Part shown: positions 568-45,180 of the stretch, piece by piece
Numbering within the stretch: position 1 is the stretch's first letter
Layout: every line of letters starts with the position of its first letter
Source of the DNA: a virus
IMG/VR virus record: IMGVR_UViG_3300037512_001384
Location: 6,442-70,441 of that record
Length of the DNA stretch: 64,000 nt
Direction: 5' to 3' (one strand)
Notes under the pieces: generated by a model
Database searches by the model: none
The model's input: only the letters and a program-made list of their open reading frames with translations
Told to the model about the DNA's origin: nothing
Program-made: the position numbers and the translations under genes

Positions 568-570
568 CGC

Positions 571-27696: not shown

Positions 27697-29073
27697 TTAC
27701 AGGCGCAGTGTACCCGCTCTTGCCGCCTCACAGCGTCTCAGCACCTCCTTACGGTCACGTATGAGTATCCTGGCTCTCATATCCATACCTTCGCCCGTGG
27801 GCTTATCCAGGACACCTATCGCAACCATCGTGAGGAAGTCCTCGATTGCCATACGGCGTGTAAGAAGGAAGGGGAACATACCGAAGTTACGTGGCGTCAA
27901 CTCTGTCCTGCCTTGTGACTCCTGCAGGAAGAGGCATTCGGGTTGTCCCTTGATAGTAACGGTGACACATGGCGCATCCTCCTGTCCCGGGATGTCAAGC
28001 ACGGAACCGGTAAATGTACCTCTGCAGACAAGGTTGAGCAGTATAGCATCCTCGATGTACTCCGTATCTGCATATCCGCATTGTACGCGCACGTCATCAA
28101 TGCCGTCTGAGTAGAGCATATCACCCTTACCCATCAGGTCCTCGGCACCGGTATGGTCGAGGATGACACGCGAATCAATACCCGATGCGACGCGGAACGC
28201 GATACGTACCGGGAAGTTCGCCTTGATGTTTCCTGTCACGATGGTCGCCGACGGACGTTGCGTGGCTATGATCATGTGGATACCGACGGCACGGGCTTTC
28301 TGTGCGATACGGCATATCATACGCTCCATATCCTTCCCGGCTGTCATAATAAGGTCGGCATACTCGTCTATGACCACGATGCAGTAACGCATGTAGTCTT
28401 CACCGTTGAGCTTGTCATTATACTCTTTGATGTTACGTACTCCTTTCTGCGAGAGAAGGGTGTAACGGTACTCCATGAGGTTAATGACACGCTGCAGGAT
28501 AGCGACAGCATCCTCTGTGGTCGTGGCTATGTCATCGGCGAGATACTTGTGCCAGAGAGGAGCGTAGATGTTGAGCTCAACCTGTTTGGGGTCGATGAGC
28601 ACCAACTGCATCTCTTCCGGTGTGCGCTTGCTCATCAGTGAGAGCAGCAGCATGTTCAGGCATACCGACTTACCTTGACCGGTCGCACCGGCAATAAGCA
28701 GGTGCGGCATCTGTGTGAGGTCACGGATGAAGAGTTCTCCCTGTACCGTCTTGCCTATGGCGCATGGAAGTGCCATCCTGCAGGACTCGTAATCGACATG
28801 ATGCAGAACGCTGTCCATGTGTACTATCTGACGTTGGAAGTTGGGAACCTCAATGCCAATCGTACCGCCTGCGAGCGGTCCCATGATGCGTACCGACTCC
28901 GTACCGACCGCCAAGGCAAACTCATCAGCGAGTCTGCGTACACGTGTCATATTCACACCCATATCCGGTCTGAACTCATACAGGGTGACGCTGGGTCCTT
29001 TCGTGACTCTCCAGCTCAGCGGTTCAATCTTATGAACCCTGAGCACCTGTTCTAACTTGTAAGTGTAATCCAT
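27697..29073 (-). CDS. FtsK/SpoIIIE-family DNA translocase (motor + gamma-like domain)
   Basis: Walker A IAGATGQGKS; Walker B IVVIDEYADL; IATQRPSATIVTGNIKANFPVRIAFRV; C-terminal winged-helix-like EDFLTMVAIGVLDKP. Start MDYTYK is preceded by the conserved array upstream element. Confidence 0.8.
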   Translation of the reverse strand: MDYTYKLEQVLRVHKIEPLSWRVTKGPSVTLYEFRPDMGVNMTRVRRLADEFALAVGTESVRIMGPLAGGTIGIEVPNFQRQIVHMDSVLHHVDYESCRMALPCAIGKTVQGELFIRDLTQMPHLLIAGATGQGKSVCLNMLLLSLMSKRTPEEMQLVLIDPKQVELNIYAPLWHKYLADDIATTTEDAVAILQRVINLMEYRYTLLSQKGVRNIKEYNDKLNGEDYMRYCIVVIDEYADLIMTAGKDMERMICRIAQKARAVGIHMIIATQRPSATIVTGNIKANFPVRIAFRVASGIDSRVILDHTGAEDLMGKGDMLYSDGIDDVRVQCGYADTEYIEDAILLNLVCRGTFTGSVLDIPGQEDAPCVTVTIKGQPECLFLQESQGRTELTPRNFGMFPFLLTRRMAIEDFLTMVAIGVLDKPTGEGMDMRARILIRDRKEVLRRCEAARAGTLRL

Positions 29074-29320
29074 AATGATTGTTTGAGTTATTATTGGCGG
29101 AGCAGCTGATGTCACTCAATCAGCTCCAGGACGTGGGATTTGTCCTTTGGAAAAGTGATGCGCACCCATGTCAATGAGTACGCATCTGTTTAACTCTTTA
29201 AATACTACAACTATGCGCCTCACGGCGTTCGTATGTAATAATTAGCACAAAGATAAGGATTCGCCCTTATCCTTGTATGGCGATGTTAATCCTTAACATA
29301 GTTAATGTACGGATTTAACA

Positions 29321-29593
29321 TTAGTAGTGTTGCTGAACGAGGTTGTCGATAGAATCAAGCACCTCATCCACGTCACGTATCACTCCCATCTTACCGAGAT
29401 CTTCCACGATACATTTAAGTCTGACGTAGTTCTTAACCCCCACACGTGTGGCTCCTACGCCGTTTTTTACGAATGACGGGCGTATGGAATGGAAGTGCTT
29501 ACGGAAGAACTGTTCAAGCGACATGAAGCCCACTGTCTTGCTCTTCTGTTCCCTGTTGCTGAAATACTCAGCGGCTAATTTCCTCAGTCTCAT
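29321..29593 (-). CDS. hypothetical protein (array gene)
   Basis: 90-aa ORF with an upstream element variant. Confidence 0.45.
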   Translation of the reverse strand: MRLRKLAAEYFSNREQKSKTVGFMSLEQFFRKHFHSIRPSFVKNGVGATRVGVKNYVRLKCIVEDLGKMGVIRDVDEVLDSIDNLVQQHY

Positions 29594-29844
29594 AGTTACT
29601 TCTCAATTAGTTAAGTTACTACCCTGTTAATTACTGACCGCCTGCACCGTATGAGCCTTGAAGTGGAATAATGCATCTGCAGGTGTCATAGGAATCGGGG
29701 TTGAAAGTATTTCCTCCTTACCCCGGCGGTACACCCTCCATTGGGTGTACTTCTTCTGGGTTGTTTTCTCTTCTTTCATTGCGAATCATTTTAGTTAGAC
29801 ATAATGGCGATTATAGCTGCGTTTCCACAGCTATAACCTTCTTG

Positions 29845-30435
29845 TTACTCGGCGATGTAATCATTCCAGAGAGCTTGTGCCATGATCTCCGCTGCAATCT
29901 CGTCCTCGGGAAGTTGGTTGAACATATCCAATGTGTTGCCATGAAGATCCTCGTCCCCGGCTTCCAAAACATCTCTAATCTCAGAGATGACATCGAGCAT
30001 ATCATCTTTGAGCTGTTGAAAATCCTCAATAGGATTACCGTCGCTGTCATAACAATGGTCGTTCGGATCATTAAGGTTAAGTAGGATGTCGCCCGTTAAG
30101 TTGATAAAGTGATATTCATGATACCCGGGTACGAACGAATACTCTGTCTTGGCGTACTGTTCGCGCAGTGATTTGAGAATGAATATCAGCTCTTCTACCG
30201 GATGCTGAATAACGTATTCGCCTTCTTCTTGGTAGTCTTCAAAGAGCAGGATGATACCGTTATCGATTGGATTTAGGTCCACACCCTGCAGCAATACCTC
30301 GCCGTCATGGTCGTCAATCATGATAGGTGTCTCGAACGTCCACGCAAATCCCATTTTCTTCATCTCCTTGCGGATGTCAGCGATTACCTGCTCTTTGAGC
30401 TCCTTTACTTTTTCGTTGTAGTTTTTTGTTTCCAT
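29845..30435 (-). CDS. hypothetical acidic protein (array gene)
   Basis: 196-aa ORF with the conserved upstream element. Confidence 0.5.
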   Translation of the reverse strand: METKNYNEKVKELKEQVIADIRKEMKKMGFAWTFETPIMIDDHDGEVLLQGVDLNPIDNGIILLFEDYQEEGEYVIQHPVEELIFILKSLREQYAKTEYSFVPGYHEYHFINLTGDILLNLNDPNDHCYDSDGNPIEDFQQLKDDMLDVISEIRDVLEAGDEDLHGNTLDMFNQLPEDEIAAEIMAQALWNDYIAE

Positions 30436-30497
30436 AATTGATGTTTTTTAGGTTAAACGTGGTTCCCTGCAAGCATTTCCGTACTTGCAGGAATAAA

Positions 30498-30977
30498 TCA
30501 CCAATGATTCGCAGTACGTATGTGTTTCATTGTGAATGTAGCGGTCTCTAATGAGCCCTTGAACTTGATGCGGGTAAAGAATGTCACACCCAATTCTCCT
30601 GTGTTGGACAGTTCAGTCTCGACCTTTGTGATTTTGGATGTGTGATTCTTTCCGTCATCAGGGCAATACCATTTGACGGTATCGTTGATGCTGTAGGGAA
30701 TGACAATCAATCCGTTCGGTTTCTCACCCAGATCCACGAAGAAATCAGTCCATCGGTCGTGGCAATTTGCGTTCTTTTCAGGAAGGTATGGCCAGGCGTG
30801 ACTTGCATTCATCTTGTCATTGGTTATAAACCCACAGTCATATTTGCCGGGAGTATAGTTCTCCTTCTGTGAGTAGGCGGGCTCAAAATCACATAGGTAA
30901 ATCCGTCCTTTGCGATAGTAACCCTTGATGTCCTGTTTGCACAAAAACATGTGCCCTTTAATAATCCTCGGTTCCAT
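30498..30977 (-). CDS. hypothetical protein (array gene)
   Basis: 159-aa ORF with the conserved upstream element. Confidence 0.5.
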   Translation of the reverse strand: MEPRIIKGHMFLCKQDIKGYYRKGRIYLCDFEPAYSQKENYTPGKYDCGFITNDKMNASHAWPYLPEKNANCHDRWTDFFVDLGEKPNGLIVIPYSINDTVKWYCPDDGKNHTSKITKVETELSNTGELGVTFFTRIKFKGSLETATFTMKHIRTANHW

Positions 30978-31203
30978 TGTAGTATGATTTAAGAGTTAAA
31001 CAATTGTTGCCGTCACAAAAACTTTCATATCTTTGTGACGTGGAAACTAAAACGGATGTTCAGTCCGTATGTCGGGACTTACCTAAACCCAAGACTTATA
31101 GTCAGGGTGAAGTGCCACACTCTCAGGGAAATTGTAATGCGCATAATTACAATATTTAAAGAGTTAGTTTCCGTCCTCAGCTTAGGGCGCATGAGGGGCC
31201 TAA

Positions 31204-31238
31204 ATGGATGTCTCGCTGGCATCCATTCTTTTTTTATG
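31204..31238 (+). terminator. hairpin + T-run (plus-strand-oriented terminator-like structure inside the minus-strand array)
   Basis: ATGGATG...CATCCAT stem followed by TCTTTTTTT. Confidence 0.35.
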
Positions 31239-31665
31239 ACCTGATTACACGGGCGTAGGAGTGAGTCGGATAGAATATTTCCTCTGCATTCCATGCGCTC
31301 GCCAAATCGTGCAAGTCCTCGAAGCAATCCACGTAATCCGAACCGGCATCGTACATCTCCAATATCTCCTTGTCGGATATTTCATTAAACTCTTTCTCGT
31401 CAAGGATGTCAGCATTGCTATCCAAGATATAGATGCGCTCACGAGATAATGGTTCCTTCATCAGACAACAGAGTAATGCGTCATTGAGCAGATTGGGGAG
31501 TTCTTCCTCGAAATAACCATCCGCGTAATTATCGATTACCTTTCCCTTGAGATTGCAGATGTCAAGGCGGTACGTGTTGTCTTCAGCTTTGACGCTTAGC
31601 TTATAACCGCGTTCTTTTAATTGTTCGTTGGCGAACTTCAGCAGTTTCTTGTTTTCTTTTTCCAT
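31234..31665 (-). CDS. hypothetical protein (array gene)
   Basis: 143-aa ORF with the conserved upstream element. Confidence 0.5.
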   Translation of the reverse strand: MEKENKKLLKFANEQLKERGYKLSVKAEDNTYRLDICNLKGKVIDNYADGYFEEELPNLLNDALLCCLMKEPLSRERIYILDSNADILDEKEFNEISDKEILEMYDAGSDYVDCFEDLHDLASAWNAEEIFYPTHSYARVIRS

Positions 31666-31730
31666 AATAGTGTAGTGTTAGAGTTAAACAATAGCTGATG
31701 CTGTCAGTGTCATCCGGCAGCATCGTAGAT

Positions 31731-32030
31731 TCATATCCAGCTCACGAAGTCAATCTCCGTCTCTTCAGTGATGTTGATAGGCTCTTCGGTGACAATCGTA
31801 CCGCAGAAGTTGACCATGATACCGGCACCTTCCTTCTGAACTGTTACGGGTGTACTCCAGTCCCCGTCATCATTGTGTCTGGTGTGATACATGTGTTTGC
31901 CTTCGGGGATTGAGTTCGGATCAAGGCGCATTCCGTCAAAGAACTGCACTTCCCGGTTCTTATCTTCTCCTACTACATGAATCTCCAGCTTGTCGCAGTA
32001 ATCGAGATGTTCGTTGTAATTGTAAAGCAT
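31731..32030 (-). CDS. hypothetical protein (array gene)
   Basis: 99-aa ORF with the conserved upstream element. Confidence 0.5.
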   Translation of the reverse strand: MLYNYNEHLDYCDKLEIHVVGEDKNREVQFFDGMRLDPNSIPEGKHMYHTRHNDDGDWSTPVTVQKEGAGIMVNFCGTIVTEEPINITEETEIDFVSWI

Positions 32031-32094
32031 AATAATATAATTTTGAGTTAAACATATTTGCTTTGGTGTCGAATATCACTCCGACACCAAACAA

Positions 32095-32706
32095 TCAGAA
32101 CGGAAGAGGAATGTCCTCGATGATTTCATTCATAACCTCTTTCTCGAACTTCTCCAACTCCTCGATGTAGTCATAGTTGCCTTCGTCTTCATCCTTGCCG
32201 CCCAACCTCTTCTCAAATTCAACAGCTTTCTTGATGAAGTAAGCGGCTTTATCTCTGGAATCCAACCAAGGGTAACTTCCGCTTTTCTCAATCTTGGCGA
32301 TGTCTTCAGCGAGGTCTGCTACCAGATGTACGGCATTCTCCATCTCCTTGTAGGTGTATGTACGCACTTCGTCTTCTCCCTTGACCTCTATCTCAGGCAG
32401 ATAATCCATGATAAAATCAATGTGCGAATAGTGTACATCACCGAGTCCAATCTCAATGTCTGACACAGAACCGTCATGCAGATTGACTGACATACGGATG
32501 TTACCTTTGGACTCCACCCATATTTTCATCACATCTACGTCGCCTACATACTCGCAATCGTCAATGCTGGCTGTTATGATGGGGTATTCTATACCGGAAT
32601 CCTTCCATGTAAAACTGCCTCCCAGCTTTTCCAGGCACTTGCGCAATTCCCTTTGTTCCTTTACGGCTATTTCAGCATACGCTTTGTAAAATGATTCATG
32701 TTTCAT
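32095..32706 (-). CDS. hypothetical protein (array gene)
   Basis: 203-aa ORF with the conserved upstream element. Confidence 0.5.
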   Translation of the reverse strand: MKHESFYKAYAEIAVKEQRELRKCLEKLGGSFTWKDSGIEYPIITASIDDCEYVGDVDVMKIWVESKGNIRMSVNLHDGSVSDIEIGLGDVHYSHIDFIMDYLPEIEVKGEDEVRTYTYKEMENAVHLVADLAEDIAKIEKSGSYPWLDSRDKAAYFIKKAVEFEKRLGGKDEDEGNYDYIEELEKFEKEVMNEIIEDIPLPF

Positions 32707-32749
32707 AATTGTAGTTTTAAGAGTTAGTTACATGGTGGAGAGATGCATT

Positions 32750-33250
32750 TTACTGCATCATCTCCTTCGGTATCAGACAGGTTGGGTTATCATTGATGTA
32801 TCTTATGATTCGCTCTATTGTAACCCAGCCGAGGCTTGCCACTCGGTCATGCCAATCATCTGCATCATCCGGATTATCCGTGTATATTATGCCCGGATTG
32901 ACGTAGTGGTAGCACATAAGATGCTCAGAGCCGTCATTTTCTTTCCGTATGTAGATACAACGGATAGAACGGTGGGTAAATTCATCTTCGAGAAGGTCAT
33001 AAACGTTATCGTCAATGTCACTCATGGAGATTTCAGGATTGACGAGACTCTTCATCTTGATAACTTCACATCCGGCTCTCTCATTGAAGGACAATACGTG
33101 AGTTGCCTCTGCTCCGTCCAAATCCAATCCGAACTCCTTGATGTCACCGGGCGTGGGCTTATGTCCTTTCTCGCGAACATACTCCATGAGTTGTTTAACC
33201 ACCTCATCCGCAGCTCTGTTCATTGATGTCATTAAGTCACTTGCTTTCAT
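32750..33250 (-). CDS. hypothetical protein (array gene)
   Basis: Start MKASDLMTS placed at the conserved upstream element (track extends to 33337). Confidence 0.45.
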   Translation of the reverse strand: MKASDLMTSMNRAADEVVKQLMEYVREKGHKPTPGDIKEFGLDLDGAEATHVLSFNERAGCEVIKMKSLVNPEISMSDIDDNVYDLLEDEFTHRSIRCIYIRKENDGSEHLMCYHYVNPGIIYTDNPDDADDWHDRVASLGWVTIERIIRYINDNPTCLIPKEMMQ

Positions 33251-33308
33251 AATCGTATTTATTTGAGTTAAGTTGTATCCTTGCGCCCGGTTAAGAGCGC
33301 ATGGATAG

Positions 33309-33854
33309 TCAGATCTCGTAGAAGGGAATCTGGTCATCGGCTGTCATCCTTCCTGTAAGCAGTTGGAAGAAGACCGTCTCATAACGTCTATGCTCAGGAC
33401 CTTCGGAATTTCTCATACAATCGAAGTATTTCTCCATTGCGGCTCGTCTGGTCATTACCTCTGTGTCGTTGTAGCAGATGACAGTTACCTGCTCTTCGAG
33501 TTTACTTTCAGCTAAACCGCTGAGAGCAGATGCTTTTGGTTCACTGAGTTCCTTGTCAAGCGTAGCCCATACGTCTATGAGAGATTCACCGAGATAGTTT
33601 AGAAGGCTGTCGCCAATCACCCATTCGGTCTCCTTGCCGGATACTTCCGTAGATACCTCGAATCGTAGTTCTCCGTCAGAATCAGCCATAACGGAATGAC
33701 ACAATTCCTTGGCGCATACCTCACCTTCAAGGAAGAAGATTTGTACGGGCTTCTTGAACTTATGGCAAACTCCCATACCCAGGCGGTTGAGCATATCACT
33801 AATCATCTGGCGTTTGGCGGCCTCAATCATCGTTTCATAAACTTGTCTTTGCAT
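33309..33854 (-). CDS. hypothetical protein (array gene)
   Basis: 181-aa ORF with the conserved upstream element. Confidence 0.5.
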   Translation of the reverse strand: MQRQVYETMIEAAKRQMISDMLNRLGMGVCHKFKKPVQIFFLEGEVCAKELCHSVMADSDGELRFEVSTEVSGKETEWVIGDSLLNYLGESLIDVWATLDKELSEPKASALSGLAESKLEEQVTVICYNDTEVMTRRAAMEKYFDCMRNSEGPEHRRYETVFFQLLTGRMTADDQIPFYEI

Positions 33855-33919
33855 AATTGTAGAGTATTTGAGTTAAACAATTGGTATGTGGCAAGGAAGC
33901 TGCTCGTTGCCACACTGAC

Positions 33920-34126
33920 TTACTTGACCTCATAGTAATCGTCGGGATAACGGCTCATATAGTTGCGAATATCCTCCTCTGTCCAATCATCGGTCATACA
34001 TCCTTTACCCTGAACGTTGGTCCTATATTTGGCTATTACCTTGCCTTTCTCATATACCCTGATGGTGTAAGTCCTGTCATGGTGGTTAGCCTTGATTCTG
34101 TAATTTCTGTCTTTTCTGTTGTACAT
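33920..34126 (-). CDS. hypothetical protein (array gene)
   Basis: Start MYNRKDRNYRI placed at the upstream element. Confidence 0.4.
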   Translation of the reverse strand: MYNRKDRNYRIKANHHDRTYTIRVYEKGKVIAKYRTNVQGKGCMTDDWTEEDIRNYMSRYPDDYYEVK

Positions 34127-34187
34127 AGTTTCGGTTTTAGTTGAACATAGTGACCATTCTATTGTTTCCAATAAAATGGTCCGGGTG

Positions 34188-34544
34188 CTAACTTACATAG
34201 TTACCGCAAGGGGTATCTGTTGTAACGTTGGCAAAACTAAGACGATAATCGGCTGGCTTGCCGTCAAAATACGTGTTGATAGTCTCAAGGATTTCTTCCT
34301 CAGAATGGTCATCCTGATATTGGCTGAAATCGCAGTAGCTGTCATCTACATAGTCTTTGTTCTCTGACATGTGGCGTACAAAATCCTCCAATTTCTCGAT
34401 GAAGAAATCGCACTCCATATTGGCCCAGTAATCCTCATTGTGGTAGATGTAACCGAAGATATGGATAAACTTTACTCCATGCTCTTCATAAATCTGGAAG
34501 AAGTCCAATTCTTCCGGTTTGGTTAATTTCTCGAATTTCTGCAT
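34188..34544 (-). CDS. hypothetical protein (array gene)
   Basis: Start MQKFEKL placed at the upstream element. Confidence 0.45.
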   Translation of the reverse strand: MQKFEKLTKPEELDFFQIYEEHGVKFIHIFGYIYHNEDYWANMECDFFIEKLEDFVRHMSENKDYVDDSYCDFSQYQDDHSEEEILETINTYFDGKPADYRLSFANVTTDTPCGNYVS

Positions 34545-38297: not shown

Positions 38298-38759
38298 TCA
38301 TGCCGCCATCTTCTCCCATTCCTCAATCTGCTCGTATGTCAGCCATTCGGGTTTGAGGTCTTCGGGTATCTTGTTCCAATACTCCTTGACGGCGGCAATA
38401 GTGTCGCGGATGCTACCGCCTATAAAATGCTCATTATGATAGCGGCAGTCCCATTTGTCGTTATCCTCGTTGCCTGACTTGCCGAAATATGCGGCTGCGT
38501 CATCGCTGAGGCGGCTCAGCATCATGTACTCGAACTGAAATCCTTTCATCCTCCGTTCTTTGTCCGTCAGAGGATTGGTGATTTCAAAGTTCTCGATACA
38601 AACATCCGGCTCTCCGTCTTGTTCCGTAGGAGGACACAGGCGGTAAAGTGCATTTGGATTGTCGTTGTTGCAGTCCACGTAATACCTGCCATATTCGTCC
38701 TTATACAGAGTTCCTTCCATTCGGTGCTCTCCGATTCTCGTCACTTTGATTTTTTCCAT
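38298..38759 (-). CDS. hypothetical protein (array gene)
   Basis: 153-aa ORF. Confidence 0.45.
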   Translation of the reverse strand: MEKIKVTRIGEHRMEGTLYKDEYGRYYVDCNNDNPNALYRLCPPTEQDGEPDVCIENFEITNPLTDKERRMKGFQFEYMMLSRLSDDAAAYFGKSGNEDNDKWDCRYHNEHFIGGSIRDTIAAVKEYWNKIPEDLKPEWLTYEQIEEWEKMAA

Positions 38760-38944
38760 ATCAGATACAGTTTTCTTAATAATCCATAGACTTGCATTCT
38801 CATTAGATTTTCAAGGCGGTAACGCTCCATGTAGTTAAAGGCGTATGACTTAGCCGTCATGTAGCCGCATCGTCTGTAACGTCTGCCTATACATCTGAGG
38901 AATGCTTTGAACATCACGGGTGAACACGTTGTTTTTTCTTCCAT
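38741..38944 (-). CDS. hypothetical protein (array gene)
   Basis: 67-aa ORF with the upstream element. Confidence 0.35.
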   Translation of the reverse strand: MEEKTTCSPVMFKAFLRCIGRRYRRCGYMTAKSYAFNYMERYRLENLMRMQVYGLLRKLYLIWKKSK

Positions 38945-39004
38945 AGTCTGTAATTTATAGTTAAACAGTTCCGCATGGAGATTTTGCTCTCCACGCAGAT
39001 AATG

Positions 39005-39997
39005 TCACGCATCGGCCCAGTAAGTCCAAGTGTGGATCTTGCTCACCCCGTAGCGGTTGAGGTAGGCGTCGAGACGTTTGCGGAACTTCTCCAGCCCGAA
39101 CTTCAGACCGTCAAGGATGAGGGCGCGTTCCTCCTTGCTCGCCTCATGGCCTTCGTTGTTGTACCACGACCTGCCGATAAGGAAATCGAGCTTGTTCTTG
39201 TAACCTGTCTCAGCGATACGCAGTGTCTCACCCTTCTCGATGCTCTCAATGGAGCGAGTGAAGGCGCTTTCGTTCTGCTGGATGAAATACTGACGGAGTT
39301 TACTCTCGTCTTTCATCAGCTCGCAATAGAACTTATAGTCCGGTCCTTCGTCATGGAAGCAGAAGCGGTTGTCTATTGACGGCTTGGTTATCAAGTAGAA
39401 ATGTCCGTCAATCTTCACCGCTCCGACACATCCCTTGCTGTAGTAGTCGCGGTCTGACTTGTCATCTTTGCACTCGGTGTCAAGAAACTCGCTGAGCCAC
39501 GTGATGAACTTCTCGTCCTTCTTGGCAGTCTTCTCGACCTTGGCGGTAATATGTGATGCTCCGCCTCCGATGAACGCCTCCACAGCCTCGCGCTTGTCGT
39601 TATTGAACAGCCAGCCCGCTCCGCAGGAGAGGAACTTGTTGAACTTCCAAGCCCCGAGTTTCTTCAGCTGCTCGCGGTAAGTGAACGTGTCACCCACAAC
39701 CGCGAAGCATTTCTCTGAATATTCTACGATTCTCAGGTCAGGCCCGTCGGTTTTCAGAGCCGCCTTGATGTCGTTGAAATCCTCCTCACCCAGCCAATCC
39801 GAACAGGAGAGGCCGTCAGGGAAATCCTCGGTGTCCTGAATCATAAACTCCGGATCGCTCTCGTTCTTGTGCAGTTCTTTGCACTTCGAGATAAACGCAT
39901 TGTAGTTCTCACAATCCGCGAGAGAAACCCATCCGCCCGCGATGCTGCCGTTGTTGTACTTACCCCAAGTACCGACATAAACTTTTGGATTACACAT
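39005..39997 (-). CDS. ardA: ArdA-like anti-restriction protein (N-terminal ArdA domain + C-terminal extension)
   Basis: N-terminus KVYVGTWGKYNNGSIAGGWVSLADCENYNAFISKCKELHKNESDPEFMIQDTEDF matches the ArdA family start (VYVg..a.YN.G.L.G.W..L...e...); 330 aa with the upstream element. Confidence 0.6.
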   Translation of the reverse strand: MCNPKVYVGTWGKYNNGSIAGGWVSLADCENYNAFISKCKELHKNESDPEFMIQDTEDFPDGLSCSDWLGEEDFNDIKAALKTDGPDLRIVEYSEKCFAVVGDTFTYREQLKKLGAWKFNKFLSCGAGWLFNNDKREAVEAFIGGGASHITAKVEKTAKKDEKFITWLSEFLDTECKDDKSDRDYYSKGCVGAVKIDGHFYLITKPSIDNRFCFHDEGPDYKFYCELMKDESKLRQYFIQQNESAFTRSIESIEKGETLRIAETGYKNKLDFLIGRSWYNNEGHEASKEERALILDGLKFGLEKFRKRLDAYLNRYGVSKIHTWTYWADA

Positions 39998-40058
39998 AGT
40001 TGTAGAATTTAAGGTTAAACATAGTGGCGGTTACGGGAGATTCCGCTCTCCCATAACC

Positions 40059-40319
40059 TTAACATTCGCCAAGCGGCTTAAGTCCGACATACTGATATTC
40101 TGCGTCGCCTGTTCCGTTTTTCTTGAAAGTCTGATAGAGTGCGCAATTGCGATTCCAATCGTGAGAATACGCCTCGCCCGGCTGGAAGATTCCTCTTTCC
40201 CAAGTTGCAGGCGGTAACGCACCGCACAGTTCCCAGAACACTTCGTTTGATATGAACTGACCGACTTTGACGTTCAGAGTCTTATCTTTCTCCCATTGCT
40301 CCATTGTGTAGATATCCAT
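40059..40319 (-). CDS. hypothetical protein (array gene)
   Basis: Start MDIYTMEQWEK placed at the upstream element. Confidence 0.4.
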   Translation of the reverse strand: MDIYTMEQWEKDKTLNVKVGQFISNEVFWELCGALPPATWERGIFQPGEAYSHDWNRNCALYQTFKKNGTGDAEYQYVGLKPLGEC

Positions 40320-40469
40320 AATCGTAGAATTAAGAGTTAAACAATAGCACCCCAGAGAATATTTCCTATTCCCTGAGATTTGACGTGTAAGGAAATTTCT
40401 CATACCCTCGTGAGAAAATCTACCGCTGAGAGGGAGAAAATCGTTTGTAGGGCAAAAATTGCGGGAAAT

Positions 40470-40917
40470 TCACGCTGATTCCTCCATATCCAACTCTCCG
40501 AGACAATAGAGGGCGAAGTTCTCAGCCGTATCCTTCGCCTCATCCCATCCGATAGCCTCACCGAATCCGTCCGCGTATTGGCTGACCTCCTTCGCCTCCA
40601 CTCCGAGAGTGTTCTTGTAGTCACTGACGTAGCACGAGCCGAGGCAAATCTGACCGCGCAGTTTCTTCAGTTCATTGTAGCACAGGTCATCCACGTGTCG
40701 CCACGGCTGCAAATCGGTCGGATCACAGAGGAATGTCTGTCCGTCCGAATCCACGACATAGACGTTCACTAATTTCGGGGTTTGGTCAATCTCCTTCTTG
40801 GTGGGCTGGTTCTCATTGCACAGGTCAAGAATCTCGTCAATAGTGACAACCTCCTTGAACCAAGTATGGAAAACCTTCTTCCCTGACTTTACGAATCTTG
40901 AGTATTTCATAATCATA
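40470..40917 (-). CDS. hypothetical protein (array gene)
   Basis: Start MIMKYSRFVK placed at the upstream element. Confidence 0.45.
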
Positions 40918-40971
40918 GAATTTGAGTTAAACTTGGTTTCCGGAACCGCTCTCGCACGATTCCGGAATGAT

Positions 40972-41361
40972 TCATACATACTGCTCGATGCTCTCAGCGA
41001 TAGAGCCCAGCGTCTCATAGCACAGGTAATCTCCGTCACCGAAGGCGAACCAATCGGGATCCCACGTGGAATCGTTGGCGTCAAACACCTCGCCCGGCTC
41101 GTTGAGGTTTATCTTGTCGGTGTTAGGGAGAATCTGCAGGGTGTCGTTCTTGACGCGCACCGCGATGACCTCATAGGGGAACATAATGTCCAAGCTGCCG
41201 TCAGAGCAGAACCTGTACGTCCAGATGTTGTCCGTTGCTCCGTCTTCCTTCACGTGGGTGTCTATGTATCCTTTCTCGCCCTGATGCAGACGGATGAAAT
41301 TCTTCACAACTTCCTCCAGCGCCTTGGTGCCGTGGAACATCAAATCCTTAAGTATTTCCAT
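40972..41361 (-). CDS. hypothetical protein (array gene)
   Basis: 129-aa ORF with the upstream element. Confidence 0.45.
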   Translation of the reverse strand: MEILKDLMFHGTKALEEVVKNFIRLHQGEKGYIDTHVKEDGATDNIWTYRFCSDGSLDIMFPYEVIAVRVKNDTLQILPNTDKINLNEPGEVFDANDSTWDPDWFAFGDGDYLCYETLGSIAESIEQYV

Positions 41362-41464
41362 ATCGTTTCAATTTTAGGTTAAACATAGTAGGCGCAGCCG
41401 GATTCCATCCCGCTGCACCCGAAAAACACTTAAATACACAACTAAGATTGTTGTTATCCTTTCG

Positions 41465-41785
41465 TCACGCAGGGACGGCCGGTTCGTACTCCAGCTCGCA
41501 GCTGCCGATTCCCTCGTCATAGAGTTTCAGCTCGGGAGCGCAGCACGAGATGACATCCGTTCCCTCATAGAAGAAACACGTCTTCTTGGACATCCCCACG
41601 ATGATTTTCTCACGCGCCCACTCAAGGTTGCGCTTGTTGAGGAAATCACGTTTGTATCGCTGGCAGATATAGAGAGTAAGCGCATAATAGGCGGAATATT
41701 TGCCCTCATACGTGGCCAGCTCCTCTATCTCGCCATTCTCGTGAATGACATTGATGACATTCAGGTTCTTGTTGGTCCTTCTCAT
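41465..41785 (-). CDS. hypothetical protein (array gene)
   Basis: 106-aa ORF. Confidence 0.4.
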   Translation of the reverse strand: MRRTNKNLNVINVIHENGEIEELATYEGKYSAYYALTLYICQRYKRDFLNKRNLEWAREKIIVGMSKKTCFFYEGTDVISCCAPELKLYDEGIGSCELEYEPAVPA

Positions 41786-41849
41786 AATCGTAGCATTAAA
41801 GAGTTATTCGCTCCGACAGGAGTTATCTCTCCTCCTGCCGGAAATAGTG

Positions 41850-42149
41850 TCAGTTGCCGATGACGAATCCGTAGCGTTTCCACATCTCCATACCGGTTTC
41901 CTTGTATTCGGCGTCCTTGTCCCAATTCTCGGGAATCCACACGTCAATGCCGAAGTCGCTGTCCTCTATGTATTCCCTCGGAATACCCAGGTCCTGACAT
42001 AGCATCTGCACGTCAGATAATGTCGGTACGTTACAGCCTCCGTAGATGCATACTTCTCCTTCTGTTTCCCAATCCTCGGTTGAATAGCCGAAATCGTGGT
42101 TCTGGGCTATATGCTCGATACCCCAGCATAATACTTCAATTTTCTTCAT
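41850..42149 (-). CDS. hypothetical protein (array gene)
   Basis: 99-aa ORF with the upstream element. Confidence 0.4.
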   Translation of the reverse strand: MKKIEVLCWGIEHIAQNHDFGYSTEDWETEGEVCIYGGCNVPTLSDVQMLCQDLGIPREYIEDSDFGIDVWIPENWDKDAEYKETGMEMWKRYGFVIGN

Positions 42150-42211
42150 AGTTGTATAGTTTAAGAGTTGGTTGGCGCGTCAGGGAATTTCCGTATTCCC
42201 TGACACAAAAG

Positions 42212-42874
42212 TCACGCTGCGTCCGGCTCGCATATACCACGGAACAGCGTTCCGTCCTCGCAGTAGATCTCGTCCTCGTCAATCAGCAGCTCCTCGCGGA
42301 CGTACTCGTCACTTCCTCCGGATTCCATATCATCCCGCCTTTCCTTGAAGAAACTGTCCAGGCAGTCATCCACCAAATCATACAGGGATTTGTTGTAGTC
42401 GGGTTTCCTGAACCATTCATAGACAGGATGCAGGATGAAGTTGTCACCGCAGAATCCGGTGAGCGGACAGTCGTAGTCCACGAGCAGGATCTTGGAGTTC
42501 TTGCTCTTGCCGTACACCCACTTGCCGTCCTCTCCGAGATGTCCTTTCGCGGAGATATATTTCCCTTTGAATACGTACTTGTGGATGTCACGCATAAAAC
42601 GCGCCAGATATTTTCCTGTCACGTCCTCCGCGTCTCTCTCATAGACGTCATTCTTGAAACGGAACCGGTAATCGTAGGAACAGGAATCCACCTCCCAGTG
42701 TCTCACGTCAATACCGAACAGCTCGCAGAACTCTTTCAGCGAGTCGCGGTATTCCGATTCCCAGGCGTCTATGTGTAACCGCTGTATGTCGTCACGCTCG
42801 CGGTCAATGACTTTCTTCTGAGCCTCTTCGCTCAGCTCCTCAAACTTGTAGAGCTTACATTTCACTTCTCTCAT
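42212..42874 (-). CDS. hypothetical protein (array gene)
   Basis: 220-aa ORF with the upstream element. Confidence 0.5.
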   Translation of the reverse strand: MREVKCKLYKFEELSEEAQKKVIDRERDDIQRLHIDAWESEYRDSLKEFCELFGIDVRHWEVDSCSYDYRFRFKNDVYERDAEDVTGKYLARFMRDIHKYVFKGKYISAKGHLGEDGKWVYGKSKNSKILLVDYDCPLTGFCGDNFILHPVYEWFRKPDYNKSLYDLVDDCLDSFFKERRDDMESGGSDEYVREELLIDEDEIYCEDGTLFRGICEPDAA

Positions 42875-42914
42875 TGTCGTAGTATTTAAGTATGGTTTAT
42901 CGTACTCCGGTAGT

Positions 42915-43230
42915 CCGTCAGGACAGCCGGAATCATTTTCACGCAGCGGAGTATGATTTATCGTACTTTCCGAACTGTCCGTACATCGTCAGGTTCTTTC
43001 CCGTACTCTTGGCGGTCAGCTCATAACTCCTGTTGCGGATTCTCCTGTAGATTCTCGTCTTCATAATCGTAGTATTTTAGAGTTGGTGATAATCGTACTG
43101 CGTAGGGTTTCCGTACTCTCCGTCAGTTTTCGTACTGCGGATAATTATCGTACTATCCGCAGTTATGGCCGCGAATCGCTTTGTCTGTCATCCGCGTGAC
43201 GTATCCTCAGCCGTTGGTTTACGTACTGAT
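42915..43230. repeat. cluster of 8 direct CGTACT-core repeats (TTATCGTACTnnCCG-like)
   Basis: Copies read at ~42921, 42981, 43022, 43113, 43142, 43150, 43161 and 43222. Confidence 0.5.
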
Positions 43231-43239
43231 TCCGCGTTC

Positions 43240-43380
43240 TCAGGACAGACCTTCAAGCAATCCGCAAAGGAGTATGAACAGGACACAGCCGGACATCGTG
43301 ACGATGATCCCGCCTATCGTGTAGTCCTCATCGAGCCAGTGCACTTTCTTGCACAGCAAATCCAAAATCTTCTCTTTCAT
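43240..43380 (-). CDS. small membrane protein (46 aa; array gene)
   Basis: MKEKILDLL...GIIVTMSGCVLFILLCGLL with the upstream element. Confidence 0.3.
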   Translation of the reverse strand: MKEKILDLLCKKVHWLDEDYTIGGIIVTMSGCVLFILLCGLLEGLS

Positions 43381-43411
43381 AATCGTAGTATCTATAGAGT
43401 TGTAGTTTCCG

Positions 43412-43768
43412 TCACGCATTTCCCATACGTGACAGAATGACCACGCGGTCCTGTTCCGGCAGTGTCGGGAGGATCGCGAAGAACAGCTTCTTGGCGGATG
43501 TGAAATCCACTCCGTTCTCCGCCAGAAATTCCTTTGACCATCGGTACTGCGCCATATCTTTCTTAAGGGCGCAGAAGTCAAACATAAAATCAAAGACTTT
43601 CATCGATACCTTGCGGGCCTCCGGTGTCTGCATCCATTCGGCCGATTTCAGGTATTCGGGAAAGTCACGTCCGTAAACCTTGAGGTTGCGGACGTCACGA
43701 GGGAGCTGCATCATATAATCCCAGGCACGCTGGCGCTCATACTCCCGTCTTTCCTTGTCTGCGTTCAT
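43412..43768 (-). CDS. hypothetical protein (array gene)
   Basis: 118-aa ORF. Confidence 0.45.
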   Translation of the reverse strand: MNADKERREYERQRAWDYMMQLPRDVRNLKVYGRDFPEYLKSAEWMQTPEARKVSMKVFDFMFDFCALKKDMAQYRWSKEFLAENGVDFTSAKKLFFAILPTLPEQDRVVILSRMGNA

Positions 43769-44473
43769 AGTTCAAGAGAATCTTCTGCGCACAGACATTC
43801 GATCATCTCCTCCGCTCCCAGTCTTTCAAGCAGCTTGGAGGATAACCTGATAAATTCTTTCATAGTTGCGCGTATTTAAGGTTAAACAATATTCGTAAGC
43901 GGACCGGCAATCTTTCAGCCGTTCCGCCCTGTCCTGTGTCTTTCATCTCTCAGGCGTTTTCCAATAGATTCTAAGTTTAACCATAACTCTGAATCCCACA
44001 GCTCCGGCCTACCGGAGATTCCAGCGGAATTATTCTCAGGCGGAAAAGGGAAATAAATTCCGGTCCGCGAGGAAAGCCCAGGGATTCGCGTAACGATACG
44101 CAAATCCGCATAATCCGCTGATTAGGGATGATGTTCAACGCTGCCGTATAATCCGCGCTCCGATTACTCACTGTTTCGGCTTTCATCTTTCACTACTTGC
44201 CTATATCACTTTCAAACGGAGTGCGCCCTGATCCTGCACGCAGCGCAAAAGCACCGGTACAGGACCGCACGGGAACAGCGCCCGCTATCCGCCAGCTCTT
44301 TGCAGAACAGCCGGAAATATTCGCGTCCAATATGTCAATGTACGTTTTATTAACTTGCACCCTTCACGGAATCCAACCGCGCCCAGATAAGCAGCTCACC
44401 TGGGTTGCAAAAAGGGTATGATCCAAGCGCCCACCTGATAGGCAAATCCTTTCAGATAGGCACAAAAAAGATA

Positions 44474-44500
44474 GGCGGCGGAAAGTATCCGCCACCTATC
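44474..44500 (-). terminator. candidate terminator for the first array gene
   Basis: GGCGG...CCGCC hairpin followed, on the minus strand, by a U-run (tatcttttttgtg). Confidence 0.35.
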
Positions 44501-44515
44501 AAACAGGGTTAAAAT

Positions 44516-45100
44516 TTAATCAACTTTGCAAACTCTTGTAAAACCAAATTTTGCCAACAGTTCAGGAGTTAAAAGACTTGCGTCTATTCCAAGACTTGCG
44601 GCCAGACTTGCGGACGCTCTTTGCAATTGCTTTTCATTTGCCTGCTTGCGTGCAGTCCGTGCAACTTCATCCCTGAATATATCGTAACTATTAAAACAAG
44701 TACGGAGGCCAGCGGCCGAAATTGTAGTTTTACGGTATGGAGTTAAACCGCTTTCCGTATTTCCTATTGTGTTTGTATCCGCTTCACTTTGAAAAGTGAT
44801 TGTAAAGTTGTTTGTTGCTTTCCTCACTTTTGCAAACACCCTCAAAAACAGATATTTTTCTGTTGCCATAAAAGGAGCGGAACGGAAAGAATCCGCAAAA
44901 CAAGCGGATAATTTATTAAGGTTTTCGGCCTCAATACTTGCGTTTTCGTTGTCAATACTTGCAAGTAGTTTGCTAATTGTGGTTTTACTTGCGTTTGCTT
45001 TTCTCAATTCCTTAACTGAAATACTTGTTACCAGTGTTTCAAGTTCAACGGTTGAAATACCTGAATAAAGGTAATCAACAAGATTTTTGTTTACTTGCAT
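44516..45100 (-). CDS. hypothetical protein (first gene of the minus-strand array, next to the origin-like region)
   Basis: 194-aa ORF with the upstream element. Confidence 0.5.
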   Translation of the reverse strand: MQVNKNLVDYLYSGISTVELETLVTSISVKELRKANASKTTISKLLASIDNENASIEAENLNKLSACFADSFRSAPFMATEKYLFLRVFAKVRKATNNFTITFQSEADTNTIGNTESGLTPYRKTTISAAGLRTCFNSYDIFRDEVARTARKQANEKQLQRASASLAASLGIDASLLTPELLAKFGFTRVCKVD

Positions 45101-45180
45101 AGTTGTAATATTTAAGAGTTAATAAAATAGTGTCAAAGTGCGCATATCGGAAACACCTTTCCGACACTATAAAATTACAA

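What the first reader, a model, noticed from the sequence alone, without database searches (positions are those of the whole stretch)
29073..45130. About 35 small minus-strand genes, each preceded by a conserved ~28-bp element, forming a likely anti-defence island
Essentially every gene from 29.1 to 45.1 kb on the minus strand starts right after the same element. On the coding strand it reads roughly TTGTTTAACTCT(T/A)AAATACTAC(G/A)ATT-ATG; on the plus strand it appears as cat-aat-cgt-agt-att-taa-gag-tta-aac. I counted about 30 copies with minor variation, and the FtsK-like gene has one too. The encoded proteins are short, unrelated to one another, and often acidic. One of them (39005-39997) has a clear ArdA anti-restriction N-terminus, and the block sits next to an origin-like region. 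This matches early anti-defence or host-takeover regions, where a repeated promoter/5'UTR cassette also favours gene shuffling by recombination. The element does not match the Bacteroides sigma-A -7/-33 consensus, so it may need a phage-specific transcription factor or act at the RNA level.
Basis: partly seen in the sequence, partly recalled or inferred. Interest (0 to 1): 0.8.

Follow-up and report, generated by a model that had tools for sequence, protein, structure and literature searches.

The report
Hairpin-plus-start-signal gene cassettes in phage
A temperate Bacteroidales phage keeps about 35 unrelated small accessory genes in a fast-changing array where each gene is preceded by the same ~60-base module (an RNA hairpin, a short conserved box and an optimised ribosome start signal), and this apparently undescribed design recurs in well over a hundred related gut and rumen phage contigs.

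Summary
About 30 minus-strand gene starts between 27.7 and 45.2 kb carry a conserved upstream element, and it is almost confined to this array.

Each ~60-nt spacer has four parts:
- the stop codon, then 0-7 nt;
- a sense-strand hairpin, mostly 12 bp with a 6-nt loop, whose stem sequence differs in every copy;
- a lineage-specific box (ATTGTTTAAC here, AGTACGAWAA in relatives);
- a G-free leader with A at -13 to -11, -6 and -3, which matches the published Shine-Dalgarno-less start context of Bacteroidota.

Canonical host promoters cluster at the head of the array, not at the modules. Relatives with 86% identical flanking primase share 2 of 35 array genes. Exchange junctions fall inside the modules.

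Best reading: standardised expression cassettes on a long early transcript. They resemble the PeSL cassettes of T4-type phages, but in an SD-less form without an evident promoter in each module. The anti-defence label is plausible but thinly supported (an ArdA N-domain and two LPD domains). What recognises the AGUACGA box is unknown.

The parts
27697..45185 (-). Whole array: about 36 minus-strand genes from the head promoter box to the FtsK-like gene
   Evidence: ORF tiling and module positions
45178..45185 (-). Perfect host sigma-A -7 box TATTTTTG, about 85 nt upstream of the first array ATG. It places the first hairpin and element inside a 5'UTR
   Evidence: consensus TAHHTTTG from PMC6847099
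45969..45976 (-). Second perfect -7 box (TACATTTG) in the head control region
45101..45167 (-). Module 1 (hairpin 45144-45167, then ...TTATTAACTCTTAAATATTACAACT) before gene 44516-45100 (194 aa, basic)
44470..44500 (-). Only canonical hairpin-plus-T-run terminator on the array strand, directly after the first gene
43864..44515 (-). About 650 nt leader with no convincing ORF between the first gene and the array proper
43864..43929 (-). Module 2 (hairpin 43897-43929, loop TGAAAGATT) before the 32-aa ORF 43765-43863. The loop is conserved in relatives while the stems differ
43381..43437 (-). Module (hairpin 43407-43437, 13 bp) before 43240-43380
43065..43239 (-). Complex spacer with tandem hairpin-AGTACGA units (the box also sits in a loop), then the element, before 42939-43064
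42875..42933 (-). Module (hairpin 42904-42933, then AGTACGATAAACC...TTAAATACTACGACA) before 42212-42874
42150..42207 (-). Module (hairpin 42176-42207, loop ACGGAA) before 41850-42149
41786..41843 (-). Module (hairpin 41811-41843) before 41465-41785 (cassette g09, shared with L010)
41362..41420 (-). Module (hairpin 41390-41420) before 40972-41361
40911..40967 (-). Module (hairpin 40938-40967) before 40470-40910
40320..40379 (-). Module (hairpin 40349-40379) before 40059-40319
39998..40058 (-). Module (hairpin 40029-40058, loop GCGGAA) before the ArdA-N-domain gene
39005..39997 (-). 330-aa protein with only the ArdA N-terminal domain (residues 6-65)
   Evidence: Pfam 4e-9; PHROG anti-restriction 6e-8; no match to solved ArdA
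38945..38999 (-). Module (hairpin 38970-38999, loop GCAAAA) before 38741-38944
38298..38759 (-). LPD11-domain gene. It has no module of its own and overlaps the upstream gene by 19 nt
38247..38295 (-). Module (hairpin 38267-38295) before 38013-38246
37926..37990 (-). Module (hairpin 37961-37990, loop ATGAAA) before 37140-37925
37074..37132 (-). Module (hairpin 37103-37132, loop ATGACA) before 36726-37073
36539..36593 (-). Module (hairpin 36562-36593) before 36362-36538
36040..36102 (-). Module (hairpin 36073-36102, loop GTAGAA) before 35266-36039
35084..35139 (-). Module (hairpin 35108-35139) before 34886-35083
34835..34879 (-). Module with a short 7-bp hairpin (34860-34879, loop ATAACA) before 34604-34834
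34545..34599 (-). Module (hairpin 34568-34599, loop GCGACA) before 34188-34544
33855..33915 (-). Module (hairpin 33886-33915) before 33309-33854
33251..33307 (-). Module (hairpin 33276-33307) before 32750-33250
32707..32749 (-). Element with only a weak hairpin before 32095-32706
32031..32091 (-). Module (hairpin 32062-32091, loop GTGATA) before the LPD28-domain gene 31731-32030
31666..31724 (-). Module (hairpin 31697-31724, loop ATGACA) before 31234-31665
31144..31173 (-). Extra element copy before a 22-codon ORF (31075-31143)
30978..31040 (-). Module (hairpin 31011-31040; exact core TGTTTAACTCTTAAAT) before 30498-30977
30436..30493 (-). Module (hairpin 30464-30493, loop CGGAAA) before 29845-30435
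29780..29838 (-). Module (hairpin 29809-29838, loop GAAA) before 29627-29779
29594..29626 (-). Degenerate element before 29321-29593
29074..29125 (-). Module (hairpin 29104-29125, loop TGAGTGAC, then AATAATAACTCAAACAATCATT) before the FtsK-like gene 27697-29073
29248..29255 (-). Perfect -7 box (TATCTTTG) upstream of the FtsK-like gene, overlapping a 14-bp hairpin (29246-29277) that closes the small-gene array
29157..29245 (+). Complete module in inverted orientation (hairpin 29157-29186, GAGTACGC box, TGTTTAACTCTTTAAATACTACAACT, ATG 29213), followed by only a 10-codon ORF
22..2658 (+). RecT-family annealing protein (22-567, cut by the window edge) and a PD-(D/E)XK nuclease/FtsK fusion (571-2658). 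This is a phage recombination system that could use the short module homologies (inference)

Best explanation
The array is the hyperplastic accessory-gene region of a ~107-kb temperate Bacteroidales phage. It is built from ORF cassettes joined by a standard ~60-nt module.

Shown:
(i) Each module starts 0-7 nt after the upstream stop codon with a hairpin selected on the sense strand. It is mostly 11-13 bp with a 6-nt purine-rich loop, and the stem sequence is different in every copy.
(ii) A short lineage-specific box follows (ATTGTTTAAC in this phage, AGTACGAWAA in relatives).
(iii) The last ~17 nt are a nearly G-free leader with A at -13 to -11, -6 and -3. This is the published optimal Shine-Dalgarno-less initiation context of Bacteroidota.
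(iv) Gene content turns over by whole cassettes, with junctions inside the modules.

Inferred:
- Host RNA polymerase starts at canonical promoters clustered at the head of the array and makes long polycistronic early transcripts.
- The hairpins act on that RNA as intercistronic insulators (3'-end protection, attenuation or processing).
- The standard leader lets ribosomes start independently on every cistron, whatever its neighbours.
- The shared module sequence supplies the short homology that the phage's RecT-type system uses to swap cassettes between phages.

The cargo is probably early host-takeover and anti-defence functions.
For: Element enrichment and confinement to the array.

Hairpins:
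- 25 of 31 starts have a hairpin of at least 9 bp.
- With G.T and A.C scored equally, stems hold 33 G.T against 4 A.C (p=1e-6), and arms are 11-13 bp in 22 of 26.
- In 14 copies aligned in register, 94% of cells pair, against 48% in shuffles and 39-47% when the partner is slid. All 12 pairs change on both sides, and 0 of 500 shuffles reach the observed value.

Start context:
- Array genes have A at 0.77-0.87 at -13 to -11, 0.77 at -6 and 0.87 at -3, with 4% G in -20 to -1.
- Non-array genes show the same A peak more weakly.
- This matches A-3, A-6, A-12 and A-13 in PMC6847099.

Transcription:
- A perfect -7 box lies 85 nt upstream of the first ATG, so the first hairpin and element are in a 5'UTR.
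- No perfect -7 box lies on the array strand between 29.3 and 44.5 kb.
- In relatives the -7 boxes cluster in the first 1-2.6 kb of the array (12 of 13, 9 of 12, 6 of 6; about 0.5 expected).
- Module hairpins lack T-runs, although a canonical terminator exists after the first gene.
- No RNA polymerase or sigma factor was detected.

Cassette exchange:
- L010 has 86% identical primase but shares 2 of 35 array genes.
- Homology of a shared cassette runs from ATG to stop only (A1).
- Arrays are mosaics of cassette-sized pieces at 65-98% identity.
- A ~97% identical cassette begins about 5 nt before the ATG and ends in the base of the next hairpin (A3).
- RecT and a PD-(D/E)XK nuclease are present.

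Generality:
- The same architecture appears in 7 + 12 related loci and in at least 120 further viral stretches.
- There, 107 of 122 matches have an abutting hairpin, and AGTACGA occurs 769 times against 33 by strand.
Against: - No transcript data exist. A weak or factor-dependent promoter in each module cannot be excluded. Copies reading TATGTTTA match 5 of 6 invariant -7 positions.
- A canonical terminator sits between the head promoter and the rest of the array (44470-44500). Read-through, antitermination or an unrecognised promoter in the 650-nt leader is therefore required.
- Predicted accessibility of the start region is not significantly higher than in non-array genes (0.66 vs 0.59, p=0.14).
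- The role of the conserved box and of the semi-conserved loops is unexplained by simple insulation.
- About 24 kb of the genome was not seen.
- The copies used for the covariation count were chosen for having clear hairpins.
Confidence: 0.5

Rival explanations
1. True PeSL-type cassettes. Every module carries its own promoter, recognised by host RNA polymerase with a phage-encoded factor or as a non-canonical sigma-A site. The hairpin is the terminator or attenuator of the preceding unit, so each gene is transcribed separately.
For: - The architecture parallels PeSLs: stop, stem-loop, promoter, RBS, ATG.
- Some copies read TATGTTTA, matching 5 of 6 invariant -7 positions, and TATTGT/GATAAT keep the T-A...T skeleton of a -10 hexamer.
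- The first gene, which has a canonical promoter and terminator, could encode an activator.
- The complete inverted module at 29157-29245 looks like an autonomous unit.
Against: - No -33 element.
- The G at -5 of the -7 box is always missing, and a G at -9 is disfavoured (PMC6847099).
- The TGTTT box is absent from L021-type modules, so it is not a family feature.
- Canonical boxes cluster at array heads instead.
- No sigma factor or RNA polymerase was found.
- A transcription start would leave only about 11-14 nt of leader.
- Spacing to the ATG is tight, as for a translation signal.
Confidence: 0.27
2. The hairpin and its AGUACGA(U/A)AA flank are a recognition site for a dedicated RNA-binding or RNA-cleaving factor, of host or phage origin. 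It would process the polycistronic RNA into monocistronic units or co-regulate all cassettes. Analogues are T7 RNase III sites, T4 RegB/RegA, lambda N-boxB and Cas6-type insulators.
For: - Uniform stem geometry with variable sequence, semi-conserved loops that differ by lineage, and a conserved stem base ACTT...AAGT.
- The heptamer is 12-fold enriched and strand-specific across many phages.
- It also occurs in loops and in tandem hairpin-box units away from start codons, that is, displayed as single-stranded RNA.
- The orthologous head hairpin keeps its loop TGAAAGAC while its stems covary.
Against: - No candidate protein was identified.
- 12-bp stems are short for RNase III.
- Conserved flanks could be kept uniform simply by recombination between modules.
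- No similar motif was found for the one mapped Bacteroides RNA-binding protein.
Confidence: 0.2
3. The modules are sites for site-specific or hairpin-directed DNA recombination (integron attC-like or REP/RAYT-like). A recombinase would capture and move cassettes.
For: - Same-orientation array of unrelated promoter-poor ORFs separated by structured repeats with a conserved stem base.
- A 280-aa tyrosine recombinase lies next to the array end.
- Single cassettes are exchanged.
Against: - The recombinase scores 38 bits against a 220-bit cut-off for the Xer/integron-integrase model. It is not divergently placed at the array head, and no attI-like site is evident.
- Stems fold on the coding strand (G.T 33 vs A.C 4), the opposite of attC bottom-strand folding, and show no extrahelical bases.
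- No HUH/Y1 transposase was found.
- The upstream junction of the exchanged cassette lies in the start-signal leader, not at one fixed site.
- The recombinase has a better candidate job, the invertible methyltransferase segment.
Confidence: 0.05
4. The hairpins are class-I-type pause hairpins. They would stall host RNA polymerase at each gene start to couple transcription with ribosome loading.
For: Hairpin-stabilised, NusA-enhanced pausing is documented for B. fragilis RNA polymerase (PMC11685472). The hairpin sits 20-35 nt before each ATG.
Against: The region 10-12 nt downstream of the stems is G-free and lacks the consensus pause signal (G at -10, Y at -1, G at +1). Stems of 12 bp are much longer than known pause hairpins.
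Confidence: 0.07

Closest known systems
PeSL (promoter-early stem-loop) cassettes of T4-type phages (Arbiol 2010, PMC2839356; Comeau 2014, PMC4122927)
   Same: A repeated ~50-100 nt composite intergenic motif in front of small ORFans in hyperplastic regions. It contains a stem-loop (with G-T pairs) and ends in the ribosome-binding region and ATG. Recombination between copies shuffles ORFs.
   Different: PeSLs contain a strong consensus host sigma-70 promoter and a Shine-Dalgarno site. Here no host-type promoter is present in the modules and the start signal is SD-less. The hairpin geometry is uniform, and a conserved AGTACGA/TGTTTAAC box has no PeSL counterpart. The host phylum and phage type (temperate siphovirus-like) also differ.
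Phage T7 early region (own knowledge)
   Same: Tandem host promoters at the head, a long polycistronic early RNA carrying an anti-restriction gene, a structured RNA element between cistrons, and each cistron with its own start signal.
   Different: T7 sites are ~20-bp RNase III substrates with internal loops and number only five. Processing is not shown here. T7 is virulent and its early region is not a cassette array.
Bacteroidota SD-less translation initiation region (Baez 2019, PMC6847099)
   Same: A-rich at -14 to -11, A at -3 and -6, low G, and no SD.
   Different: The array version is nearly invariant in sequence (…CTTAAAT.CTACAAYT-ATG), not just in composition, and it is coupled to a hairpin and a box.
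Integron gene cassettes and attC sites
   Same: Same-orientation arrays of unrelated, mostly promoterless ORFs separated by structured repeats that are conserved in structure more than in sequence.
   Different: No IntI-type integrase or attI. The hairpin folds on the coding strand, there are no extrahelical bases, and junctions are not at a fixed point.
REP/BIME intercistronic palindromes of enterobacteria (own knowledge)
   Same: Short palindromes between cistrons that stabilise upstream mRNA, flanked by a conserved short motif.
   Different: REPs are chromosomal, mobilised by RAYT transposases, and not coupled to a standard start signal or to cassette turnover.

Membership tests
PeSL cassettes | Repeated composite motif in intergenic spacers of a hyperplastic ORFan region | tested here: met
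   31 modules. The array shares 2 of 35 genes with a relative whose primase is 86% identical.
PeSL cassettes | Contains a consensus host primary-sigma promoter | tested here: not met
   No TAHHTTTG box and no -33 TTTG in the modules. Perfect boxes occur only at the array head and before the FtsK-like gene.
PeSL cassettes | Stable stem-loop within the motif | tested here: met
   (94% of cells paired, all 12 pairs covary).
PeSL cassettes | Recombination between motifs swaps ORFs | tested here: met
   Homology limits fall in the modules (A1, A3). Arrays are mosaics.
PeSL cassettes | Measured promoter and terminator activity; mini-circles | not testable with these tools
   Needs reporter assays and inverse PCR.
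Bacteroidota SD-less TIR | A enriched at -14 to -11, A at -3 and -6, and no SD | tested here: met
   Frequencies; criteria from PMC6847099.
Bacteroidota sigma-A promoter | -7 box TAHHTTTG 4-5 nt before the TSS, with a -33 TTTG | tested here: not met
   The best module variants, TATGTTTA and TATTGTTT, lack G at -5 and carry a G at a non-G position.
Intrinsic terminator | GC-rich hairpin followed directly by a U-tract | tested here: not met
   Only 44470-44500 qualifies on the array strand among the gene spacers. Module stems are followed by GC.../AGTACGA.
ArdA anti-restriction protein | Full-length three-domain ArdA fold or sequence | tested here: not met
   Pfam matches positions 1-60 of 155 only. 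No hit to solved ArdA at E<=1.
ArdA anti-restriction protein | Strongly acidic DNA-mimic surface | tested here: inconclusive
   Whole-protein pI is 5.4. No structure was modelled.
ArdA anti-restriction protein | Inhibits type I restriction | not testable with these tools
   Needs an assay.
Integron | IntI-type integrase with attI and Pc at the array head | tested here: not met
   The 280-aa recombinase scores 38 bits against a 220-bit cut-off and lies beyond the far end in the same orientation.
Integron | attC: bottom-strand hairpin with R/L boxes and extrahelical bases | tested here: not met
   Sense-strand folding (G.T 33 vs A.C 4) and near-perfect stems.
Any Rfam RNA family | Score above the gathering threshold | tested here: not met
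   Only tRNA-Gln in the window.

The most novel reading that the evidence does not exclude
The hairpin plus single-stranded AGUACGA(U/A)AA box is the target of an as yet unknown RNA-processing or RNA-binding factor in Bacteroidales or their phages. That factor would cut or insulate every cistron of the early transcript. It would be a natural counterpart of the synthetic Csy4/RiboJ insulators, making shuffled cassettes express independently of context, and it would be shared by hundreds of gut and rumen phages.
Probability: 0.2. Interest if true: 0.85.

Novelty: new variant of a known kind. Interest (0 to 1): 0.62.

Why it matters
Gene expression signals in Bacteroidota and their phages are poorly understood, because these organisms use neither Shine-Dalgarno sites nor sigma-70-type promoters.

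A compact natural module that repeats about 30 times per genome, and in well over a hundred phage contigs, would be useful in four ways:
- It marks the fast-evolving accessory and likely anti-defence genes of abundant gut and rumen phages, so they can be found by motif alone.
- It offers ready-made standard expression parts for Bacteroides engineering.
- It extends the PeSL idea, where regulatory cassettes double as recombination linkers, to an unrelated phage-host system with a different expression logic.
- It exposes a conserved RNA hairpin and heptamer whose reader is unknown.

Tried and rejected
1. I replaced it with a profile.
2. The window profile finds nothing in the ArdA-anchored relatives. 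Reading their gene starts showed the same architecture with diverged sequence.
3. The FtsK anchor found no relatives.
4. Exact-protein look-ups returned only the same phage, so they showed no cassette variation.
5. I first took the FtsK-like start as GTG 29115 and concluded it lacked a sense copy. The called start at 29073 corrected this.
6. A host sigma-A promoter reading of TTGTTTAAC was rejected on consensus grounds and because the box is lineage-specific.
7. ECF-type and T7/T3-like promoter resemblances were considered from memory. They would place the start inside the ORF or would need an RNA polymerase that was not found.
8. A loop-box pseudoknot was checked by hand. It works for ATGACA loops only and not in relatives.
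9. The 'insulated, more accessible start region' idea was not significant.
10. The integron-like reading was rejected.
11. Rfam found nothing.
12. The RbpB motif gave no match.
13. LoVEphage, the nearest cultured group, has only three module-like starts.
14. Literature searches found no prior description, but the library is limited to open-access texts.

Full report
WHAT THE WINDOW IS

The window is part of a phage. It encodes an SPP1-type portal (53591-55348), a large terminase interrupted by an intein/homing-endonuclease segment (55360-58152), a primase-helicase, a D5-like primase (46014-47483), two FtsK-like proteins, several DNA methyltransferases, RecT and a tyrosine recombinase.

Exact-protein look-ups place it on a 107,074-nt contig. 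That contig also carries a 378-aa integrase, HTH regulators, RusA, a lysin and tail genes, so the phage is temperate.

Three lines point to a Bacteroidales host:
- The portal is 41% identical to the Bacteroides/Phocaeicola LoVEphage group.
- The start-codon context has no Shine-Dalgarno site.
- One relative is binned in a Bacteroidales MAG.

There is no near-identical DNA in the deposited phage collection.

CHECKING THE OBSERVATION

The literal motif has no match at up to 3 mismatches, but the element is real.
- A profile from 18 clear copies gives 24 hits at E<=1 on the minus strand of 29.0-45.2 kb. The only other hit in the window is an inverted copy at 29181-29215.
- The core 16-mer gives 8 hits against 0.65 expected.
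- Thirty-one starts carry a recognisable version, including the FtsK-like gene at its called start 29073.
- The 35 small proteins are unrelated to each other. 20 of 35 have pI <= 5.5.
- Only three have family matches: an ArdA N-terminal domain (39005-39997), LPD11 (38298-38759) and LPD28 (31731-32030).

ANATOMY OF THE MODULE

Typical spacers are 58-66 nt. In minus-strand order they contain the following parts.

(a) The upstream stop codon, followed within 0-7 nt (15 of 16 regular spacers; derived from the coordinates) by the hairpin.

(b) A hairpin. 25 of 31 starts have at least 9 bp, arms are 11-13 bp in 22 of 26, and the modal loop is 6 nt with the pattern R-Y-G-A-M-A.
- Stem sequences differ in every copy.
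- In 14 copies aligned in register, 94% of cells pair, against 48% in shuffles and 39-47% when the partner is slid. All 12 pairs change on both sides, and 0 of 500 shuffles reach the observed value. Those copies were chosen for having clear hairpins.
- With G.T and A.C scored alike, there are 33 G.T against 4 A.C (p=1e-6). Sense-strand folds are more stable than antisense ones (-17.7 vs -14.3 kcal/mol).
- So the structure is selected on the coding strand, that is, in RNA (or, less likely, in sense-strand single-stranded DNA).

(c) After 5-10 nt comes a box, (T)ATTGTTTAAC in this phage.

(d) Then CTTAAA, about 10 nt, and ATG.

THE 3' HALF IS A TRANSLATION START SIGNAL

- Array genes have A at 0.77-0.87 at -13 to -11, 0.77 at -6 and 0.87 at -3, T at -1, and only 4% G in -20 to -1.
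- Non-array genes of the same phage show the same A peak at -14 to -12, more weakly.
- In Flavobacterium johnsoniae, A-rich -14 to -11 is the phylum's signature. A at -3, -6, -12 and -13 were shown by ribosome profiling and reporters to promote SD-less initiation (PMC6847099).
- The element is therefore an extreme, sequence-fixed version of the normal Bacteroidota start region.
- Two complete copies outside the array (7139+, 47784+) lack the hairpin, and one lies within an operon. So the two halves of the module are separable.

PROMOTERS AND TERMINATORS

- The sigma-A -7 box is TAHHTTTG, 4-5 nt before the TSS.
- On the array strand, perfect boxes lie at 45976 and 45185. The latter is 85 nt before the first ATG, so the first hairpin and element sit in a 5'UTR. 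Another lies at 29255, before the FtsK-like gene. None lies between 29.3 and 44.5 kb.
- In nine relatives such boxes are concentrated in the first 1-2.6 kb of the array strand (for example 12 of 13, 9 of 12 and 6 of 6, against about 0.5 expected) and are rare further in.
- The only hairpin-plus-T-run terminator among the spacers follows the first gene (44470-44500). Module hairpins are followed by GC... or AGTACGA, not by T-runs.
- No RNA polymerase or sigma factor was found in about 85 of 107 kb.
- Together this favours a promoter cluster feeding long early transcripts. It also leaves open how transcription passes the terminator and the ~650-nt leader (43864-44515).

RELATIVES

- Seven loci found through the ArdA-like protein (34-53% identity) and twelve found through the primase (43-86%) all have same-strand arrays of small ORFs with a hairpin, a box and an A-rich leader ending in ATT-ATG. 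The box and loop consensus differ by lineage.
- In most of them the stem begins ACTT and ends AAGT and is followed by ACGAWAA. The heptamer AGTACGA is very strand-biased (20:1, 19:1, 17:3, 12:0; 7:2 in the window).
- L021-type modules have no TGTTT box, so that box is not a family feature.
- In that 1.0 Mb, 107 of 122 matches have an abutting hairpin. AGTACGA occurs 769 times against 33 by strand (62 expected per strand), and 102 loci have three or more copies.
- The box-to-ATG distance peaks at 27-35 nt. But 242 of 552 distinct copies are not next to a start, and some lie in hairpin loops or in tandem hairpin-box units, as in the window at 43065-43239.
- LoVEphage has only three module-like starts.

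CASSETTE TURNOVER

- L010-L012 have 86% identical primase, but within 10 kb of array they share only 2 of the window's 35 array genes.
- For the shared gene g09, homology runs from the ATG to the stop and the neighbours are unrelated (A1).
- All-against-all comparison shows mosaics of cassette-sized pieces at 65-98% identity and shifted positions.
- L017 and L021 share one ~97% identical LPD11 cassette. It starts about 5 nt before the ATG and ends in the 5' base of the next hairpin. That next hairpin has the same loop but compensatory different arms (A3).
- The phage encodes RecT and a PD-(D/E)XK nuclease, which could use such short homologies. This last step is an inference.

INTERPRETATION AND COMPARISON

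The best-supported model is a set of standardised expression cassettes on polycistronic early RNA: a sense-strand RNA hairpin as intercistronic insulator, a fixed SD-less start region, and module sequences doubling as recombination linkers.

The closest described system is the PeSL of T4-type phages (PMC2839356, PMC4122927). The defining host-type promoter was tested and is not met, so this works like a PeSL in evolution but probably not in transcription. The T7 early region is the closest functional analogy.

The integron-like reading fails on integrase, strand and junction criteria. A pause-hairpin role (PMC11685472) lacks the pause consensus. A promoter in each module remains a serious rival at about 0.27.

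The anti-defence label is plausible, given the ArdA N-domain, LPD domains of early-conflict proteins (PMC5512222), acidity and turnover, but it is unproven. The ArdA-like protein is not a canonical ArdA.

UNEXPLAINED

- What reads the AGUACGA box and the semi-conserved loops.
- How transcription enters the array past the first-gene terminator.
- Why stems are so uniform in length.

Open-access literature searches found no description of these modules, but that library is incomplete.

Noticed in passing
window 6041-7108 (inverted repeat 6163-6178 / 6689-6704): An N6/N4 DNA methyltransferase gene is split head-to-head. The N-terminal half is on the minus strand and the C-terminal half on the plus strand. 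A 16-nt inverted repeat (94% complementary) brackets the segment, and inverting 6163-6704 in silico restores one intact 309-aa ORF. This looks like an inversion-switched (phase-variable) phage methyltransferase, caught in the OFF state.
   Followed up: yes
window 26668-27510 (-); L025 4414-5550: A small 280-aa Xer-like tyrosine recombinase lies just beyond the array and the FtsK-like gene. It is far below curated family cut-offs and is a candidate invertase for the methyltransferase switch. A separate 378-aa integrase lies just outside the window.
   Followed up: partly
window 43897-43929; L015 ~6239, L017 ~7645, L020 ~2387, L021 ~7942: The first hairpin of the array has a conserved 8-9-nt loop (TGAAAGAC / TGAAAGATT) in five phages, with entirely different covarying stems. 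It may be a regulatory RNA hairpin (nut/boxB-like?) at the entry to the array.
   Followed up: partly
window 43864-44515: About 650 nt without a convincing ORF lie between the first array gene (which has its own canonical -7 box and terminator) and the rest of the array. There is no nucleotide similarity to relatives.
   Followed up: partly
window 29157-29245 (+): A complete module in the opposite orientation (hairpin, GAGTACGC, TGTTTAACTCTTTAAATACTACAACT, ATG) is followed by only a 10-codon ORF and a bidirectional-looking hairpin. It may be the remnant of an inverted or deleted cassette, or an antisense unit.
   Followed up: partly
window 43065-43239: Tandem hairpin-AGTACGA units, with the box also displayed in a hairpin loop. 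The same arrangement occurs in L002 and L031.
   Followed up: partly
window 7109-7138 and 47754-47783 (+): Full copies of the element (CTATTGTTTAAC...) lie in front of 7139-7648 (DUF4494) and 47784-48608 (Band_7), outside the array and without a hairpin. The second overlaps the end of the upstream gene.
   Followed up: partly
window 45862-45981 and 45200-45350: Five AATGWACCAAA iteron-like repeats lie next to the D5-like primase start, and AT-rich palindromes lie nearer the array. This fits an origin or control region.
   Followed up: partly
window 55360-58152 (-): The large terminase carries Hint and homing-endonuclease segments, so it contains an intein.
   Followed up: no
window 571-2658 (+) and 27697-29073 (-): There are two FtsK/SpoIIIE-like ATPases in one phage. 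The first is fused to an N-terminal PD-(D/E)XK nuclease and sits directly after RecT.
   Followed up: no
window 20212-20736, 20708-21745, 13555-14334, 9293-9364: An HNH/NUMOD homing endonuclease, a PAPS-reductase-like gene, a DUF5131 gene and a tRNA-Gln lie among the plus-strand replication and modification genes. At least four DNA methyltransferase genes are present.
   Followed up: no
L028 (LoVEphage MW660583) 10858-12671: The published LoVEphage genome has three adjacent starts with the same design (hairpin + TTTCACCCTTTAAATTTTGCGTT-ATG). Cultured relatives could serve for experiments.
   Followed up: partly
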